Below, piece after piece: positions 39,367 to 44,800 of a stretch of DNA of 50,546 nucleotides (positions are counted from its first letter, which is position 1; each line of letters opens with the position of its first letter). Below the pieces are notes generated by a model, which did not search any database, was not told the origin of the DNA, and saw nothing but the letters and a program-made list of their open reading frames with translations. The stretch is from Bacillota bacterium (lineage in GTDB: Bacteria > Bacillota > Dethiobacteria > DTU022): the NCBI GenBank assembly GCA_016874655.1, contig VGTO01000003.1, forward strand, positions 1 to 50,546. Reading direction: 5' to 3'. The position numbers and the translations under genes are program-made.

Positions 39367-39671
39367 TTATTATATAGCCAACCAGGCATTCAAGGCCCTA
39401 ATTTTAATCAGCAAAACCGCTCTTTGATCGAAAGCATTTAACTTCCACTTACATTATAACCGGATAACTTTTTTAAACAATACGGCTTAGTTTGGGTCGT
39501 ATTTATGATAAACAATAAATCTCAGTTTTTCGATCCGGATCAGCACAACTCGACTTGCCCGGTTAGCTTGTGCCCACCAATTCATCCTCCAACCTGGGCT
39601 TTGCCGCACCCCGGCCCCACAGACTAAAATGACGATGCTTCACAAAAACGCTTTGAAAGGAGGTGAATCAA

Positions 39672-39896
39672 ATGGCAGTTAACGCTATTCCTTTAACCGC
39701 TCGCCTGCAATTGCGGCTGAACACCGGATTGGATGACAATTTTAATCCGATCTACCGCACCCGCTCTTTCTCCAACGTTAAGACCACCGCGGACAACGAA
39801 GACCTGTTCGAACTGGCAGAGGAGATTGGCAGCCTGCAGCTGCACACCCTGGAAGCTGTGCGCCGGGTAGACGAGTACGAACTTGAAGAAGTGTAA
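39672..39896 (+). CDS. DUF1659-family small protein
   Basis: GAAAGGAGGTGA RBS; RLQLRLNTGLD..G/NP.YRTRSFSNVK..A..E.L..LA..I..LQ pattern. Confidence 0.8.
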   Translation: MAVNAIPLTARLQLRLNTGLDDNFNPIYRTRSFSNVKTTADNEDLFELAEEIGSLQLHTLEAVRRVDEYELEEV

Positions 39897-39942
39897 AAGT
39901 AATTCCTAAGTTACAAAATTATCAAGCGAAGGAGGTGATTAA

Positions 39943-40161
39943 ATGAGCGCAACTTTACAGATGATCTTCCGCAATGCGGCTAATAGCAACACTACTGTTT
40001 CTATAGCAGATCCTGACCCGGAAATAACAGCAATGGAAGTAGAAGCGGTAATGGATTCGATAATCAGCCGCAATGTTTTCAACACTTCCGGCGGTGACCT
40101 CGCAAGCAAGGTCAAAGCCCAGGTGGTTTCCAGAACAGTAGACGTATTGGGTGAATATTAA
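39943..40161 (+). CDS. DUF2922-family small protein
   Basis: AAGGAGGTGA RBS; TLQMIFRN...TVSIADP..EIT..EV..VMD.II..NVF....GDL....A.VV pattern. Confidence 0.82.
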   Translation: MSATLQMIFRNAANSNTTVSIADPDPEITAMEVEAVMDSIISRNVFNTSGGDLASKVKAQVVSRTVDVLGEY

Positions 40162-40166
40162 AACTG

Positions 40167-40197
40167 AGGGGGGTGGGCTCAGCCCGCCCCCTGTTTT
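40167..40197 (+). terminator. Internal terminator-like hairpin between DUF2922 and yvrJ
   Basis: AGGGGGGTGGGCT-c-AGCCCGCCCCCT followed by GTTTT. Confidence 0.6.
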
Positions 40198-40217
40198 GTA
40201 GGAGGTGAGTTAAGGTA

Positions 40218-40358
40218 ATGGAAGAAATGGTTGTTTTAATCGGCAATTTCGGCTTTCCCGTTGCAGTCAGTATTTACCTGCTGGTGCGTCTGGAGGGTAA
40301 GCTGGAAACCCTGACCGACAGCATCCATTCCCTATCGGAAGCCCTGGTCAAGCATTAG
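40218..40358 (+). CDS. yvrJ: YvrJ-family small membrane protein (46 aa, holin-like)
   Basis: Below ORF-track cutoff. AGGAGGTGA RBS; MEEMVVLIGNFGFPVAVSIYLLVRLEGKLETLTDSIHSLSEALVKH with the GNFGFP..V..YLLVR.E.KL signature. Confidence 0.88.
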   Translation: MEEMVVLIGNFGFPVAVSIYLLVRLEGKLETLTDSIHSLSEALVKH

Positions 40359-40383
40359 GTAGGCGCACTACCTTAGATCAAAA

Positions 40384-40406
40384 CCCTCTCCCGCGCAGGG
40401 AGAGGG
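40384..40406. repeat. CCCTCTCCC/GGGAGAGGG hairpin between yvrJ and the amidase
   Basis: Perfect 9-bp stem with GCGCA loop; no U-tract. Confidence 0.6.
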
Positions 40407-40442
40407 CCATCATTAAGAATAGTAGAAGGGAAAACTAACAAC

Positions 40443-41162
40443 ATGCAAAAACCGGTAATAGTTTTGGATCCCGGACACGGGGGATATGATTCAGGAGCAA
40501 GTTATCATGGTCTGAAAGAAAAAGATTTAAACCTGGCTCTGGCCTTAAAAGTTGCTGCCCGGCTAAGTGGCTACAAAATATTACTAACTCGCGAACGCGA
40601 CATTTATGTATCGCTGGCTGATCGCGTCGCTTTAAGCAAAAGAGCTGAAGCCGATCTTTTTATATCACTGCATGCCAATGCCGGAGGAGGAAAGGGTTTT
40701 GAGTCATTCATTTACAGCGGTCTGGGCGCCAAAGATCCGGCAGTACCGATGCAGCAGGTGATCCATAGAGCGATTATGAAGGCTCTGGGCCGCTGGGAAA
40801 TAGTCGATCGCGGATTAAAAAGGGCTTCTTTTTACGTGCTGAAAAGTAACCCCCGCCCGGCTATACTAATCGAATCACTCTTTCTCGATAACATAAGGGA
40901 GGCGCAGATCTGGCGGGAACCGCTCTTTACTGAAACACTGGCCGGCAGCCTGGCAGACGGACTCAGCATTGCCCTTGGTTCAAGCAATAATGAATCGCCA
41001 GCATCGGCAAGCCCTACTGCAAACTCATCAACATCATCCCCTCACTCAGGCCTTTACACTGTGCAGGTAGGCGCTTTTGCCCACCTTGAAAATGCCCGCC
41101 AGCGCCTGGCTGAAGCACAGGCGGCAGGATTTGGTGATGCCTACATCTATCAGAAACAGTAA
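40443..41162 (+). CDS. N-acetylmuramoyl-L-alanine amidase (Amidase_3 + SPOR), no signal peptide
   Basis: LDPGHGG, EKDLNL, ISLHANAGG, ILIESLFLDN, Ser/Pro linker, YTVQVGAF SPOR domain. Confidence 0.93.
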   Translation: MQKPVIVLDPGHGGYDSGASYHGLKEKDLNLALALKVAARLSGYKILLTRERDIYVSLADRVALSKRAEADLFISLHANAGGGKGFESFIYSGLGAKDPAVPMQQVIHRAIMKALGRWEIVDRGLKRASFYVLKSNPRPAILIESLFLDNIREAQIWREPLFTETLAGSLADGLSIALGSSNNESPASASPTANSSTSSPHSGLYTVQVGAFAHLENARQRLAEAQAAGFGDAYIYQKQ

Positions 41163-41170
41163 CCTGAACT

Positions 41171-41207
41171 AGCGGGGGATTCTATCCCTGTGATAGTAAC
41201 CCCCGCT
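41171..41207. terminator. Hairpin between convergent amidase and ComK-like genes
   Basis: AGCGGGGG-ATT-CTATC...GATAG-TAA-CCCCCGCT long stem. Confidence 0.65.
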
Positions 41208-41244
41208 TGCATTAGGATAATCATGCTGATTATAAGCTGTTTTT

Positions 41245-41871
41245 TTATATTCTAACGTCAGCCAACAACTGGTATAAAAAGCTGCTGATTGTGTTAATCT
41301 TCTCATACAAATCAGGACCGTTCCTGACCTGTTCGGCAATAACCAGCGGTTGTTGCCGATGAATACCTGCCTGATTGTGTAGAAGACGGTAACGATCAAG
41401 GGCCAGGCGGCCCTGGTTGAGCCTTTTTTCAATGACCTGTCGGGTGAAGCAGCAGGGCATACTTAAACCACCATTTAAATGAATGCGGCACTTAATCCGC
41501 TGATCTGTATCAAGGCTGTCCTCTTCACAAATTTTTAAAACATCGGCAACACTAACATATCCGCTCGCCCCATCGTTTTCTACCAGCGGATGCCGCATCT
41601 TAAGCGGAACCAAAACTAAATAGTGACTAACCGGCAATGGAACACACTGGCCACAACCGAGATAGTTTTTATAGTTCTTACGTAACTCAACCAAGTCATA
41701 ACCGTAATACTTAAGAAACCTGTTCAAAATAGTCTTTAGCCTGCGGTTATCCTCAATCACCTCACCCTGGCGGGTGTAGATCCGGGTTGTGTTTCCCCCT
41801 TTTGGCCCATAACATGGTTCCAATGCAATAATTGACTGAATGCAGTTTTCTAATGTTTTTATCTGCTTCAC
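41245..41871 (-). CDS. ComK-like putative transcription factor
   Basis: IIALEPCY...TRIYT....LKTILNRF...YGYDL..LR......LG....VPL......VLVPLK.R...ENDG..GYV order matches the ComK-family layout; GGAGGTGA RBS. Remote similarity only. Confidence 0.65.
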   Translation of the reverse strand: MKQIKTLENCIQSIIALEPCYGPKGGNTTRIYTRQGEVIEDNRRLKTILNRFLKYYGYDLVELRKNYKNYLGCGQCVPLPVSHYLVLVPLKMRHPLVENDGASGYVSVADVLKICEEDSLDTDQRIKCRIHLNGGLSMPCCFTRQVIEKRLNQGRLALDRYRLLHNQAGIHRQQPLVIAEQVRNGPDLYEKINTISSFLYQLLADVRI

Positions 41872-41882
41872 CTCCCTGGCCT

Positions 41883-41911
41883 ATTATAGGCGAACATATG
41901 TTTTTTGTAAA
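41883..41911 (-). promoter_or_regulatory. SigmaA promoter with LexA (SOS/Cheo) box in the spacer
   Basis: Minus strand TTTACA (41911-41906)-N17-TATAAT (41888-41883); spacer holds CGAACATATGTTTT (41891-41904) versus Bacillota consensus CGAAC-N4-GTTCG. Confidence 0.8.
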
Positions 41912-44004: not shown

Positions 44005-44236
44005 CTTTATCTCCTCCCTCCTTTCCCGGGGAAAATAACTTAGTCATGTCTTATAATATTTTCTGCTGAACCAGGAAATATCCTCTAACCCTTATTAATT
44101 GACAAACTCTGACCAATATAATACGCTACCAGCAGTAAAAACAACAGAGCAGGGGGCAAAATTGTTTACACTTAGGAATTAATATACATTATCAACCATG
44201 TGTCGACCTGACTCTATTAAGGAAGGAGTATCAGCA

Positions 44237-44800
44237 ATGAGAACTTTTTTCATTATCTTAATGTTACTGTTAGCCTTCGCCATTGCAGCTGTCGCGATCG
44301 CAAACAGTGAAATTGTTACTGTTAGTTACCTCTTTGGTCAGATCGATCTGAATCTTTTTGCGGTAATTCTCGGATCAGCCCTCGGAGGTATTATGGTGAT
44401 GATCTTTTTTATGATTTATCGCGGTATTCACAACTACATCAAATCGGAAAGTGTACGTAACCTGAAAAAGGAGCTGCAGCGCCAGGTACAAAGCTTAGGA
44501 GCTGAGAATAAAAAGCTGGAAGATGAGATCAGCAAACTGCAAAGAGAGCGTGAAATTGCCGCTGAAAAAGCACGCACTGAACTGGAAAACGAGAAGAAGA
44601 AACTGGAAGATGAGTTGACCAGGCAGCAAAGAGAGCGCGAAAATACTATGGCCAGAGAGCAGGCTGAGCTTGAAGCAGAAAAACACAAACTCGAAGAAGA
44701 ACTAAAGAAACACCAGGGAGTAATAGGAGCCCCGGAAGCAGAACTCACAGGAGAAGACCCTACAGTCAAAAAAGGATTTTTTGACTTTTTGAAGAAGTAG
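44237..44800 (+). CDS. LapA/DUF1049-like membrane protein with repeated coiled-coil tail
   Basis: Two TM helices around N...VTVSYLFG; charged C-terminal repeats; ATG 44237 with AAGGAG RBS. Confidence 0.7.
   Translation: MRTFFIILMLLLAFAIAAVAIANSEIVTVSYLFGQIDLNLFAVILGSALGGIMVMIFFMIYRGIHNYIKSESVRNLKKELQRQVQSLGAENKKLEDEISKLQREREIAAEKARTELENEKKKLEDELTRQQRERENTMAREQAELEAEKHKLEEELKKHQGVIGAPEAELTGEDPTVKKGFFDFLKK

What the first reader, a model, noticed from the sequence alone, without database searches (positions are those of the whole stretch)
39672..41911. Candidate DNA-damage-inducible module: ComK-like regulator + DUF1659-DUF2922-YvrJ-amidase, with no phage genes
Seen: four co-directional genes with very strong RBSs (two ~73-aa DUF proteins, a 46-aa single-TM YvrJ, a signal-peptide-less Amidase_3-SPOR) converge on a ComK-like gene whose promoter carries an SOS box. 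No integrase, terminase, tail or replication gene is nearby. Known: a small TM protein directly before a signal-less amidase is the holin-endolysin layout; LexA boxes confer DNA-damage induction; ComK proteins are activators. Inference: a minimal domesticated circuit LexA -| ComK-like -> two abundant small proteins + lysis pair, for programmed lysis/eDNA release or release of a protein assembly. I know of no functional description of this five-gene unit.
Basis: partly seen in the sequence, partly recalled or inferred. Interest (0 to 1): 0.82.

Follow-up and report, generated by a model that had tools for sequence, protein, structure and literature searches.

The report
LexA-controlled ComK-like five-gene stress module
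A chromosomal set of five genes (a distant ComK-type regulator with a DNA-damage operator in its promoter, two small partner proteins, a tiny membrane protein and a cell-wall amidase) recurs across many anaerobic Bacillota and looks like an undescribed branch of the DNA-damage response that ends at the cell envelope.

Summary
Pfam confirms DUF1659, DUF2922, YvrJ and Amidase_3+SPOR. The convergent 208-aa gene is a remote ComK relative. Its near-consensus promoter carries a LexA-type box between the -35 and -10. The promoter and box are identical in 7 of 7 genomes of the genus. Equivalent boxes sit before ComK-like genes in other families: 12 of 21 and 12 of 21 in two samples, against 16 of 524 control ORFs. 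ComK-like and DUF2922 co-occur in 141 genomes (8 ComK-like only, 56 DUF2922 only, 196 neither). The gene order with an amidase recurs in 12 of 52 families, using Amidase_2 or Amidase_3. No phage genes flank the locus. The genus has no Spo0A or SpoIVA match, so a sporulation (CwlC-type) role is rejected. DUF1659 and DUF2922 are predicted to bind each other. Their S. aureus homologues SroA and SroB interact and are induced by DNA damage. Not shown: that ComK-like activates the operon, and that YvrJ plus the amidase lyse the cell or export proteins. Best reading: LexA represses ComK-like, which turns on the small-protein pair and a holin/endolysin-like pair. The closest known analogue is the C. 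perfringens uviAB-bcn system. I rate it a new variant of a known kind, of high interest.

The parts
39601..39630 (+). Candidate promoter of the DUF1659 operon: TTGCCG, 18 nt, TAAAAT. It has a weak -35 and no LexA-type box.
   Evidence: 9 of 12 match. The -35 block, the -10 and the following TGACGATGCTT are conserved in the genus genomes while the spacer varies; the L069 row holds a run of N further upstream.
39672..39896 (+). DUF1659 protein, 74 aa, SroA-like, with a strong RBS (AAAGGAGGTGA).
   Evidence: Pfam PF07872, E 1.3e-24. AF2 model pLDDT 92.9 with a beta-beta-alpha-beta layout. No PDB fold match at E<=0.001.
39943..40161 (+). DUF2922 protein, 72 aa, SroB-like, with a strong RBS.
   Evidence: Pfam PF11148, E 2.6e-24. 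Predicted to bind DUF1659: score 0.71 against a best control of 0.00.
40168..40199 (+). G+C-rich hairpin followed by GTTTTGT, between DUF2922 and yvrJ. Terminator or attenuator-like.
   Evidence: 11 pairs, 9 of them G-C.: -26.1 kcal/mol, z -2.67.
40218..40358 (+). YvrJ, 46 aa. One N-terminal hydrophobic helix followed by a charged helix. Candidate holin-like membrane protein.
   Evidence: Pfam PF12841, E 1.2e-20. PHROG phrog_4898, annotated 'holin', E 1.8e-6. The topology is read from the sequence.
40384..40406 (+). 9-bp G+C-rich hairpin between yvrJ and the amidase gene, with no T run after it.
   Evidence: the 90-nt stretch folds at -29.9 kcal/mol, z -4.21.
40443..41162 (+). N-acetylmuramoyl-L-alanine amidase, 239 aa: Amidase_3 plus a C-terminal SPOR domain, no signal peptide (CwlC-type architecture), weak RBS.
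   Evidence: PHROG endolysin families, E 3e-44. The C-terminus matches the SPOR domain of a 'sporulation-specific N-acetylmuramoyl-L-alanine amidase' (1x60), E 7.7e-7; that this chain is B. subtilis CwlC is my recall.
41171..41207 (.). Hairpin in the 82-bp gap between the two convergent genes. A T run follows at about 41237-41247.
   Evidence: -30.6 kcal/mol, z -4.30.
41245..41871 (-). ComK-like protein, 208 aa, GTG start only 11 nt after the -10. Candidate transcription activator.
   Evidence: Atlas neighbours carry ComK in 13% and 10% of members. AF2 model pLDDT 88.5.
41883..41911 (-). Sigma-A-type promoter of the ComK-like gene: TTTACA, 17 nt, TATAAT. The LexA-type box (41891-41904) lies in the spacer.
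   Evidence: 11 of 12. The 33-nt block is identical in the window and in 6 of 6 other genus genomes, including two where the upstream gene differs. The box has one mismatch to the lexA operators of the genus.

Best explanation
This is a chromosomal, phage-independent sub-branch of the SOS response. Step 1 (supported by sequence comparison): LexA sits on a box inside the promoter of the ComK-like gene and keeps it off. DNA damage removes LexA and the ComK-like protein is made. Step 2 (inferred): the ComK-like protein, a remote relative of the activator ComK, turns on the neighbouring operon. That operon's own promoter has a poor -35 and no LexA box. Step 3 (predicted, with experimental precedent in S. 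aureus): DUF1659 and DUF2922 are made in quantity and form a heterodimer. By analogy with SroA/SroB they tune the response after transcription. A hairpin after DUF2922 lets less transcript reach the last two genes. Step 4 (inferred from gene order and domains): YvrJ, a 46-aa single-helix membrane protein, lets the signal-less amidase reach the wall. There its SPOR domain would bind peptidoglycan. The outcome would be wall remodelling, lysis, or holin-type release of cell contents in badly damaged cells.
For: LexA step. The genus lexA operators are CAAAC-N4-GTTTG. In G000 the same motif marks a dinB-like gene and the start of a gene cut off at the end of a contig, with an operator identical to the genus lexA operator. 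The window box lies in the spacer of an 11 of 12 promoter. Promoter and box are identical in 7 of 7 genus genomes, although the proteins are only 71-79% identical and the upstream gene differs in two of them. In other families the same position holds perfect boxes (G294 CGAACATATGTTCG; G415 CGAACACATGTTTG). One locus per family: 12 of 21 ComK-like genes have a box with at most 1 mismatch within -220 to +40 (7 perfect), against 16 of 524 control ORFs (2 perfect). Second sample: 12 of 21 (10 perfect). Linkage. DUF2922 is in 197 of 401 and ComK-like in 149 of 401 genomes of the phylum sample. Both 141, ComK-like only 8, DUF2922 only 56, neither 196. ComK-like lies within 7 kb in 21 of 52 loci, 15 of them on the same strand just downstream. 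The layout matches the window in 6 of 6 genus genomes. Cascade. A LexA box directly before DUF1659 occurs in 6 of 15 loci from genomes without ComK-like, against 4 of 36 with it (perfect: 4 of 15 against 1 of 36). A T-tract promoter element occurs in 13 of 36 against 0 of 15. Pair. Complex score 0.71, best of 3 controls 0.00; that mark was reached by 58 of 80 solved complexes and 2 of 110 mismatched pairs; the runs share at least 98% of contacts and partner pLDDT is at least 89. In S. aureus sroAB is MMS-induced through SigS and SroA-SroB give a positive two-hybrid signal (passages). SroA overexpression raises sosA (section 20). Envelope step. A signal-less amidase follows YvrJ in 12 of 52 family loci (Amidase_2 in 10, Amidase_3 in 2), and in 4 of 5 cassette-bearing loci of the second sample. 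YvrJ hits a PHROG annotated as holin.
Against: No expression data exist for this organism. The window box has one mismatch, and the genome holds 134 such sites. ComK-like genes of four other genera of the same family show no box by my criterion (L160, L161, L162, L168). Of 42 ComK-like genes sampled, 18 have none. Activation of the operon by ComK-like is not shown. In this genus the operon promoter has neither the T-tract element nor B. subtilis-type ComK boxes. I defined the T-tract element by eye on the same loci I then counted, and the tests are post hoc and not corrected for phylogeny. Most cassettes (40 of 52) have no amidase beside them, so lysis cannot be the core function unless the amidase is encoded elsewhere. 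YvrJ shows no Pfam similarity to BhlA or other holin families, even at E<=1. The S. aureus work points to regulation inside the cell, not to release. One genus genome (G405) has a TAG at codon 3 of the ComK-like gene.
Confidence: 0.5

Rival explanations
1. Purely regulatory, or a cell-cycle checkpoint. DUF1659/DUF2922 act as SroA/SroB-type post-transcriptional modulators. YvrJ is the SOS-induced small membrane inhibitor of cell division, the role that SosA, YneA and SidA play elsewhere. The SPOR amidase remodels septal peptidoglycan. No lysis occurs.
For: SroA stabilises sigS mRNA and SroB counteracts it. SroA overexpression raises the division-inhibitor transcript sosA. YvrJ is a LexA-linked single-helix membrane protein. 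Most cassettes (40 of 52) lack an adjacent amidase. That SPOR domains target septal glycan, and that small membrane proteins are the usual SOS division inhibitors, is established knowledge that I recall and did not test.
Against: The amidases beside YvrJ lack signal peptides and so need some export route. Two unrelated amidase families recur at the same position, which is the pattern of holin-endolysin pairs. YvrJ hits a PHROG annotated as holin. No homology to any known division inhibitor was found or tested.
Confidence: 0.2
2. A chromosomal bacteriocin-type release system, like colicins or Bcn5. The DUF1659-DUF2922 complex is the cargo. YvrJ and the amidase release it after SOS induction. 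ComK-like takes the place of the UviA sigma factor.
For: The parts list matches that of C. perfringens Bcn5: a LexA site, a dedicated regulator, a single-helix BhlA-family holin, an amidase and a signal-less cargo (passages). The operon order is cargo, hairpin, release genes. Strong RBSs precede the two small proteins. A small sigma-70 r2+r4 gene stands directly before DUF1659 in 4 of 52 loci.
Against: No immunity gene is evident. The small proteins have no toxin-like family or fold match. The S. aureus homologues act inside the cell. The pair occurs without YvrJ in 13 of 52 loci.
Confidence: 0.15
3. Damage-induced competence or recombination regulator. ComK-like mainly switches on DNA-uptake or repair genes elsewhere in the genome, and the neighbouring cassette is only one target or a modulator.
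For: Remote ComK homology. G000 has a ComEC gene. A ComFC-like gene lies near the cassette in 4 of 52 loci.
Against: The co-occurrence is with DUF2922, not with competence genes, which I did not survey. ComEC is present in 10 of 14 control genomes whether or not they are competent. No ComK-box pattern was seen in the window.
Confidence: 0.1
4. Remnant of a prophage lysis cassette.
For: All four operon proteins hit PHROG families. In genomes with 7-8 copies, DUF1659-DUF2922 pairs sit beside DUF3102 genes; that DUF3102 is typical of mobile elements is my recall.
Against: No phage-type family among the 18 flanking proteins scanned. No tblastn match of DUF2922 in 50,697 phage records. It is mostly single-copy in 197 of 401 genomes and conserved in order across 52 families. 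No PADLOC hit.
Confidence: 0.05
5. Sporulation function: CwlC-type mother-cell lysis under sigma-E or sigma-K.
For: The amidase has the CwlC architecture and its SPOR part matches 1x60. A 2010 paper grouped DUF1659 with sporulation domains (one passage).
Against: Spo0A_C and SpoIVA gave no match in 6 of 6 genomes of the genus (completeness 86-98%), although all six keep the unit. In the phylum sample DUF2922 barely tracks SpoIVA: 167 both, 30 DUF2922 only, 157 SpoIVA only, 47 neither; odds ratio 1.67.
Confidence: 0.03

Closest known systems
S. aureus SigS-SroAB circuit (bioRxiv 10.1101/2022.10.19.512975; PMC13192611)
   Same: A DUF1659 gene followed by a DUF2922 gene on one transcript, each with a strong RBS. 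Induced by DNA damage (MMS) through a dedicated regulator. The two proteins interact. There is a link to SOS genes (sosA).
   Different: The regulator there is an ECF sigma factor, not a ComK-type protein. No LexA box is reported in the passages I read. There is no YvrJ and no amidase. The authors say the staphylococcal sequences are conserved only within the staphylococci.
C. perfringens uviA-uviB-bcn (Bcn5) SOS-inducible bacteriocin locus (passages in PMC4459074 and PMC9527704)
   Same: A LexA-binding site, a dedicated secondary regulator, a very small single-helix holin-like protein, an N-acetylmuramoyl-L-alanine amidase and signal-less proteins to be released. Induced by UV or mitomycin C.
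   Different: The regulator is a group-5 sigma factor. The holin is of the BhlA family, and YvrJ shows no detectable similarity to it. The cargo is a large bacteriocin and the locus is often on a plasmid. Here the unit is chromosomal and spread across many families.
B. subtilis ComK, the competence master regulator (Pfam PF06338)
   Same: Remote sequence homology through intermediate family members. Similar length (208 aa here; ComK is about 190 aa by my recall).
   Different: The window protein is below Pfam's cut-off. It is LexA-controlled and linked to DUF1659/DUF2922/YvrJ rather than to competence operons. No K-box pattern was seen.
B. subtilis CwlC (PDB 1x60 is listed as a sporulation-specific amidase; that it is B. 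subtilis CwlC is my recall)
   Same: Amidase_3 catalytic domain plus a C-terminal SPOR domain and no signal peptide.
   Different: CwlC is a sporulation gene under sigma-K (my recall). This genus shows no Spo0A or SpoIVA match, and the gene sits in a damage-linked operon.
B. subtilis SigO-RsoA regulon (oxdC-yvrL, yvrJ, yvrI-yvrHa; passage in PMC8103513)
   Same: A YvrJ-family gene under a dedicated, unusual transcription factor.
   Different: A different regulator, and an acid-stress context (my recall). The B. subtilis control genome gave no PF11148 (DUF2922) match.

Membership tests
ComK (PF06338) | Score above Pfam's gathering cut-off (22.3 bits) | tested here: not met
   12.4 bits, E 0.14, over residues 14-83. 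A genome-wide PF06338 search in G000 found nothing above the cut-off.
ComK (PF06338) | Homology through intermediate sequences | tested here: met
   The profile of the window family finds 759 representatives at E<=0.001. Of 80 sampled from the best 150, 18 hit ComK at E<=0.01 and 6 at E<=1e-5. Atlas neighbours carry ComK in 13% and 10% of members.
ComK (PF06338) | DNA binding at AT boxes and activation of competence genes | not testable with these tools
   No fold match in the PDB at E<=0.001; only weak RemA rows. No K-box pattern upstream of the operon in the genus alignment.
LexA (SOS) regulon member | Operator matching the clade's own lexA operator and placed over the promoter | tested here: met
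   One mismatch to CRAAC-N4-GTTYG. It lies between the -35 and -10.
LexA (SOS) regulon member | Conservation of the operator at orthologous promoters | tested here: met
   7 of 7 in the genus. 12 of 21 and 12 of 21 in two samples, against 16 of 524 controls.
LexA (SOS) regulon member | Induction by DNA damage; LexA binding | not testable with these tools
   No RNA run holds the stretch. The organism is uncultured (record titles).
SroA/SroB-type pair (DUF1659 + DUF2922) | Both Pfam domains, adjacent, DUF1659 first | tested here: met
   The same order holds in 51 of 52 family loci.
SroA/SroB-type pair (DUF1659 + DUF2922) | Physical interaction of the two proteins | tested here: met
   Prediction only: score 0.71 against a best control of 0.00. 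Two-hybrid evidence exists only for the S. aureus proteins.
Holin-endolysin pair | Small membrane protein directly before a signal-less peptidoglycan hydrolase | tested here: met
   It recurs with Amidase_2 or Amidase_3 in 12 of 52 loci.
Holin-endolysin pair | Membership of a curated holin family | tested here: inconclusive
   Only PHROG phrog_4898, annotated 'holin', at E 1.8e-6. Pfam shows YvrJ alone even at E<=1.
Holin-endolysin pair | Membrane permeabilisation and lysis | not testable with these tools
   Needs expression experiments.
CwlC-type sporulation amidase | Amidase_3 + SPOR, no signal peptide | tested here: met
CwlC-type sporulation amidase | Host sporulates; mother-cell expression | tested here: not met
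   Spo0A_C and SpoIVA gave no match in 6 of 6 genomes of the genus.

The most novel reading that the evidence does not exclude
The unit is a phage-independent, SOS-triggered commitment and release device that is widespread in anaerobic Bacillota. A LexA-gated ComK-family switch commits heavily damaged cells to YvrJ/amidase-mediated lysis or non-lytic export. This releases a new two-protein complex (DUF1659-DUF2922) that acts outside the cell as a bacteriocin or public good. A corollary is that the original role of the ComK family was as a branch of the DNA-damage response, and competence control in Bacilli came later.
Probability: 0.15. Interest if true: 0.85.

Novelty: new variant of a known kind. 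Interest (0 to 1): 0.72.

Why it matters
The finding ties three domains of unknown function (DUF1659, DUF2922, YvrJ) and an unstudied branch of the ComK family to one testable context: the LexA-controlled response to DNA damage. About half of the sampled genomes of the phylum carry DUF2922 (197 of 401), so the assignment would touch many genomes. It offers candidates for two open questions in anaerobic Bacillota. One is which genes couple the SOS response to the cell envelope, by division arrest, autolysis or DNA release. The other is what ComK relatives do in bacteria that are not known to be transformable. It also places the S. aureus SigS-SroAB work in a wider frame. There, the same small-protein pair is wired to DNA damage through a different regulator. 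Here, comparative data suggest that LexA acts directly on the pair where ComK-like is absent, and through ComK-like where it is present.

Tried and rejected
The sporulation reading (CwlC-type mother-cell lysis) is rejected. Spo0A_C and SpoIVA gave no match in 6 of 6 genus genomes, and DUF2922 associates only weakly with SpoIVA.

The prophage reading is rejected as the main explanation. The flanks are housekeeping genes, DUF2922 has no tblastn match in the phage collection, and no protein hit PADLOC.

I tested whether DUF1659 and DUF2922 are paralogues. hhalign gave probability 0.16%, so it is not shown.

Fold searches of the ComK-like and DUF1659 models against the PDB gave no match at E<=0.001. 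The weak rows (RemA; phage p56) are not used as evidence.

The absence of lexA from G000 is an assembly gap and not a loss. An operator identical to the genus lexA operator, and the first codons of a gene, lie at the end of contig C148. All 6 other genus genomes have lexA.

Expression: no RNA holder was listed for the stretch.

Neighbour clustering found no further conserved partner beyond amidases, a small sigma factor (4 of 52 loci) and a ComFC-like gene (4 of 52 loci).

Literature searches found no paper that describes the five-gene unit or a LexA-controlled ComK relative. The C. difficile LexA paper contains none of the words ComK, competence, hypothetical or cell division in its main text. 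The C. acetobutylicum LexA passages do not list such genes. Supplementary tables were closed and may list such genes.

Sampling limits. The 52 loci are one per family, taken from the best 150 of 249 DUF2922 matches. Families seen only among the 99 unlisted matches were not sampled. L138 is a 3.1-kb contig without the DUF1659 region. Eight extra loci (L141-L148) are second copies and were left out of the counts. The control ORFs are mechanical ORFs of at least 150 aa, not curated genes.

Full report
WHAT IS THERE. Between 39672 and 41162 four genes lie on the + strand. They are DUF1659 (74 aa), DUF2922 (72 aa), YvrJ (46 aa) and an Amidase_3+SPOR protein (239 aa), and all pass Pfam's cut-offs. 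The amidase domain begins at residue 6, so the protein has no signal peptide. Its SPOR part matches chain 1x60, listed as a sporulation-specific amidase; that this is B. subtilis CwlC is my recall. The first three genes have GGAGGTGA-type ribosome-binding sites and the amidase has a weak one. A G+C-rich hairpin followed by GTTTTGT separates DUF2922 from yvrJ. A second hairpin separates yvrJ from the amidase gene. A 208-aa gene converges on the operon (41245-41871, minus strand). The flanks encode a UbiA prenyltransferase, a geranylgeranyl-reductase-like flavoprotein, a GH18 protein, an HD protein, an amidase-signature enzyme, a DivIC/LapA-like membrane protein, an M20 peptidase and others. None of them is phage-like. 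The genome is a 2.13-Mb assembly of 152 contigs, 96.5% complete. Records of close relatives are titled uncultured Syntrophomonadaceae or Bacillota bacterium.

THE CONVERGENT GENE IS A REMOTE ComK RELATIVE. The protein itself is below Pfam's ComK cut-off (12.4 against 22.3 bits) and has no match in NCBIfam, PHROGs or PADLOC. A profile of its close homologues finds 759 cluster representatives at E<=0.001. Of 80 sampled from the best 150, 18 hit PF06338 at E<=0.01 and 6 at E<=1e-5. The protein-atlas neighbours carry ComK in 13% and 10% of their members. The AlphaFold model is confident (pLDDT 88.5): a beta-rich core followed by long C-terminal helices. It has no PDB match at E<=0.001.

THE SOS BOX IS REAL IN THE COMPARATIVE SENSE. 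lexA was not found in G000 but is present in 6 of 6 other genomes of the genus. Their lexA operators read CAAAC-N4-GTTTG, and those of order-level relatives read CGAAC/CAAAC-N4-GTTCG/GTTTG. In G000 only 5 perfect CRAAC-N4-GTTYG sites exist. One lies 21 nt before a dinB-like polymerase gene. One, identical to the genus lexA operator, lies before a gene start at the very end of contig C148. lexA is therefore lost to an assembly gap. The window site CGAACATATGTTTT (41891-41904) has one mismatch, and 134 such sites exist in the genome, so on its own it proves little. It does lie exactly between a -35 TTTACA and a -10 TATAAT. The 33-nt promoter-plus-box block is identical in the window and in all 6 other genus genomes, including two where the upstream neighbour is a different gene. 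In other families of the order the same position holds AAAACAGGCGTTCG (G413), a perfect CGAACATATGTTCG (G294, G417) and CGAACACATGTTTG between TTTACA and TATAAT (G415).

ACROSS THE PHYLUM SAMPLE. With one locus per family, 12 of 21 ComK-like genes have a box with at most one mismatch within -220 to +40 of the start. Seven of these are perfect, and most lie at -52 to -77. The control was 16 of 524 ORFs, with 2 perfect. In a second set of 20 stretches, 12 of 21 ComK-like genes have a box, 10 of them perfect, including 7 of 15 genes that stand alone. Four genera of the window's own family lack a box by this criterion.

THE UNIT IS CONSERVED. DUF2922 occurs in 197 of 401 sampled genomes of the phylum, mostly once per genome. 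The ComK-like family occurs in 149 of 401, nearly always once. Both are present in 141 genomes, ComK-like alone in 8, DUF2922 alone in 56 and neither in 196. The odds ratio is 62, but relatives are not independent. In 52 loci from 52 families (7 kb on each side), DUF1659 precedes DUF2922 in 51. YvrJ is present in 39, directly downstream in 34. ComK-like is present in 21, and in 15 of those it is on the same strand within 2.5 kb downstream. An amidase without a signal peptide follows YvrJ or adjoins the pair in 12 of 52 loci. It is Amidase_2 in 10 and Amidase_3 in 2. Amidase_2 also lies between YvrJ and ComK-like in 4 of 5 cassette-bearing loci of the second sample. Usually all genes are co-directional, and the amidase has been replaced by an unrelated family in some lineages. 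The window's genus (6 of 6) differs only in having the ComK-like gene inverted. Order-level relatives G294 and G415 have the same Amidase_3 after YvrJ, with ComK-like 2.6 and 5.2 kb further on the same strand.

NOT SPORULATION, NOT A PROPHAGE. A 2010 paper grouped DUF1659 with sporulation domains (one passage). In this sample DUF2922 hardly tracks SpoIVA: 167 both, 30 DUF2922 only, 157 SpoIVA only, 47 neither; odds ratio 1.67. The window's genus gave no SpoIVA and no Spo0A_C match in 6 of 6 genomes, yet all six keep the unit. DUF2922 has no tblastn match in the phage collection. The PHROG hits and the multi-copy pairs beside DUF3102 genes show that relatives also occur on mobile elements.

HOW IT MAY WORK. 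The operon's own promoter in the genus (TTGCCG, 18 nt, TAAAAT) is conserved, has a poor -35 and has no LexA box. This fits dependence on an activator. Across families the wiring is complementary. A LexA box directly before DUF1659 is found in 6 of 15 loci from genomes without a ComK-like gene, against 4 of 36 with one (perfect boxes: 4 of 15 against 1 of 36). A bipartite T-tract element in the -35 region (13 of 51 loci against 20 of 458 control ORFs) is found only in genomes with ComK-like (13 of 36 against 0 of 15). These tests are post hoc and uncorrected for phylogeny, and I defined the T-tract motif on the same data. Still, they are what a cascade from LexA through ComK-like to the operon predicts.

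THE TWO SMALL PROTEINS. They are predicted to form a heterodimer. The score is 0.71 and the best of 3 controls is 0.00. That mark was reached by 58 of 80 solved complexes and by 2 of 110 mismatched pairs. The runs share at least 98% of contacts and the partner's pLDDT is at least 89. No similar solved fold exists, so the pass is unlikely to come from memory of a known structure. Their S. aureus homologues SroA and SroB are induced about 1000-fold by the ECF sigma factor SigS. They are induced by MMS in a SigS-dependent way, interact in a two-hybrid test, and have opposite effects on sigS mRNA (passages). SroA overexpression raises the transcript of the SOS division inhibitor sosA (abstract and section 20).

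THE ENVELOPE STEP. YvrJ has one N-terminal hydrophobic helix with aromatic residues, followed by a charged helix. A review describes this topology for the BhlA/UviB/TpeE holins (passages). YvrJ also hits a PHROG annotated as holin. No similarity to a curated holin family was detectable.

COMPARISON AND VERDICT. The nearest known system by its parts is the C. perfringens uviAB-bcn locus. It has a LexA site, a dedicated regulator, a one-helix holin, an amidase and a signal-less cargo, and is induced by UV or mitomycin C (passages). The nearest by homology is the S. aureus SigS-SroAB circuit. B. subtilis yvrJ is under SigO-RsoA (passage). In all three cases the cassette genes answer to a dedicated, unusual regulator. 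In 4 of 52 loci here a small sigma-70 gene stands directly before DUF1659. I found no paper describing this unit or a LexA-controlled ComK relative (searches; supplements closed). It remains inferred for activation by ComK-like and for lysis. I rate it a new variant of a known kind, with high interest.

Noticed in passing
G000:C148:1906-1987 (own genome, outside the window): An operator identical to the genus lexA operator (CAAACAATAGTTTG), a -10 and an RBS are followed by the first codons of a gene at the very end of a 1987-bp contig. lexA seems to have been lost to an assembly gap.
   Followed up: partly
G000:C10:33133-33146: A perfect LexA-type box lies 21 nt before a dinB-like Y-family polymerase gene (N-terminus MNKKVIFLADMESFYASVE...). 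It serves as an internal positive control for the motif.
   Followed up: partly
L089, L097-L099, L116, L118, L120, L125, L127, L132-L134, L137 (about -50 to -95 before DUF1659): A recurrent promoter layout: a hairpin, T5-7 N1-3 T4-5 C, then about 12-16 nt, then TAnAAT. It occurs in 13 of 51 loci against 20 of 458 control ORFs, and only in genomes that have a ComK-like gene. It may be the ComK-like binding site. It is absent from the window.
   Followed up: partly
L092, L094, L109, L139 (directly upstream of DUF1659, same strand): A small sigma-70 family gene (regions 2 and 4, 175-202 aa) precedes the cassette in 4 of 52 family loci. This recalls SigS, SigO and UviA.
   Followed up: partly
L141:6402-7352, L142:5978-6898, L143:8001-8744: In genomes with 7-8 DUF2922 matches, DUF1659-DUF2922 pairs without YvrJ sit beside genes that are DUF3102 by Pfam in L141 and L143 (the L142 gene was judged by likeness only). 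This may be a mobile-element version of the pair.
   Followed up: partly
G420:C58:38581-40604 and G060:C153:14272-16852: In two order-level relatives a gene with an S24 peptidase (LexA-like C-terminal domain; 63-69 bits to the lexA model) lies 1.2-1.8 kb from the ComK-like gene.
   Followed up: no
window 41869-41888: The GTG start of the ComK-like gene lies 11 nt after the -10 and overlaps a GGAGG. The mRNA would have almost no leader. This stretch is identical across the genus.
   Followed up: no
L074 (G405:C31), codon 3 of the ComK-like gene: CAG is replaced by TAG in one of six genus genomes. This is either a pseudogene or a sequencing error.
   Followed up: no
L085 (G406:C13:5226-7320): A second cassette in one genus genome: weaker DUF1659 and DUF2922 matches, then ComK-like, DUF1659, DUF2922 and YvrJ, all co-directional and without an amidase.
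   Followed up: no
L003 (G000:C129), ORF 1480-1689: A second, solitary YvrJ-like ORF (69 aa) lies directly after a 320-aa ORF that looks like a 6-phosphofructokinase by eye (not scanned). It has no DUF1659 or DUF2922 beside it.
   Followed up: partly
window 44198-44800: A 200-aa membrane protein with LapA-like and DivIC-like coiled-coil matches and a highly charged E/K-rich tail lies 2.3 kb from the unit.
   Followed up: no
G000 and G401-G403, G405, G406 (whole genomes): No Spo0A_C or SpoIVA match in six genomes of the genus, while 5 of 6 other genomes of the family have SpoIVA. The genus appears to have lost sporulation.
   Followed up: partly
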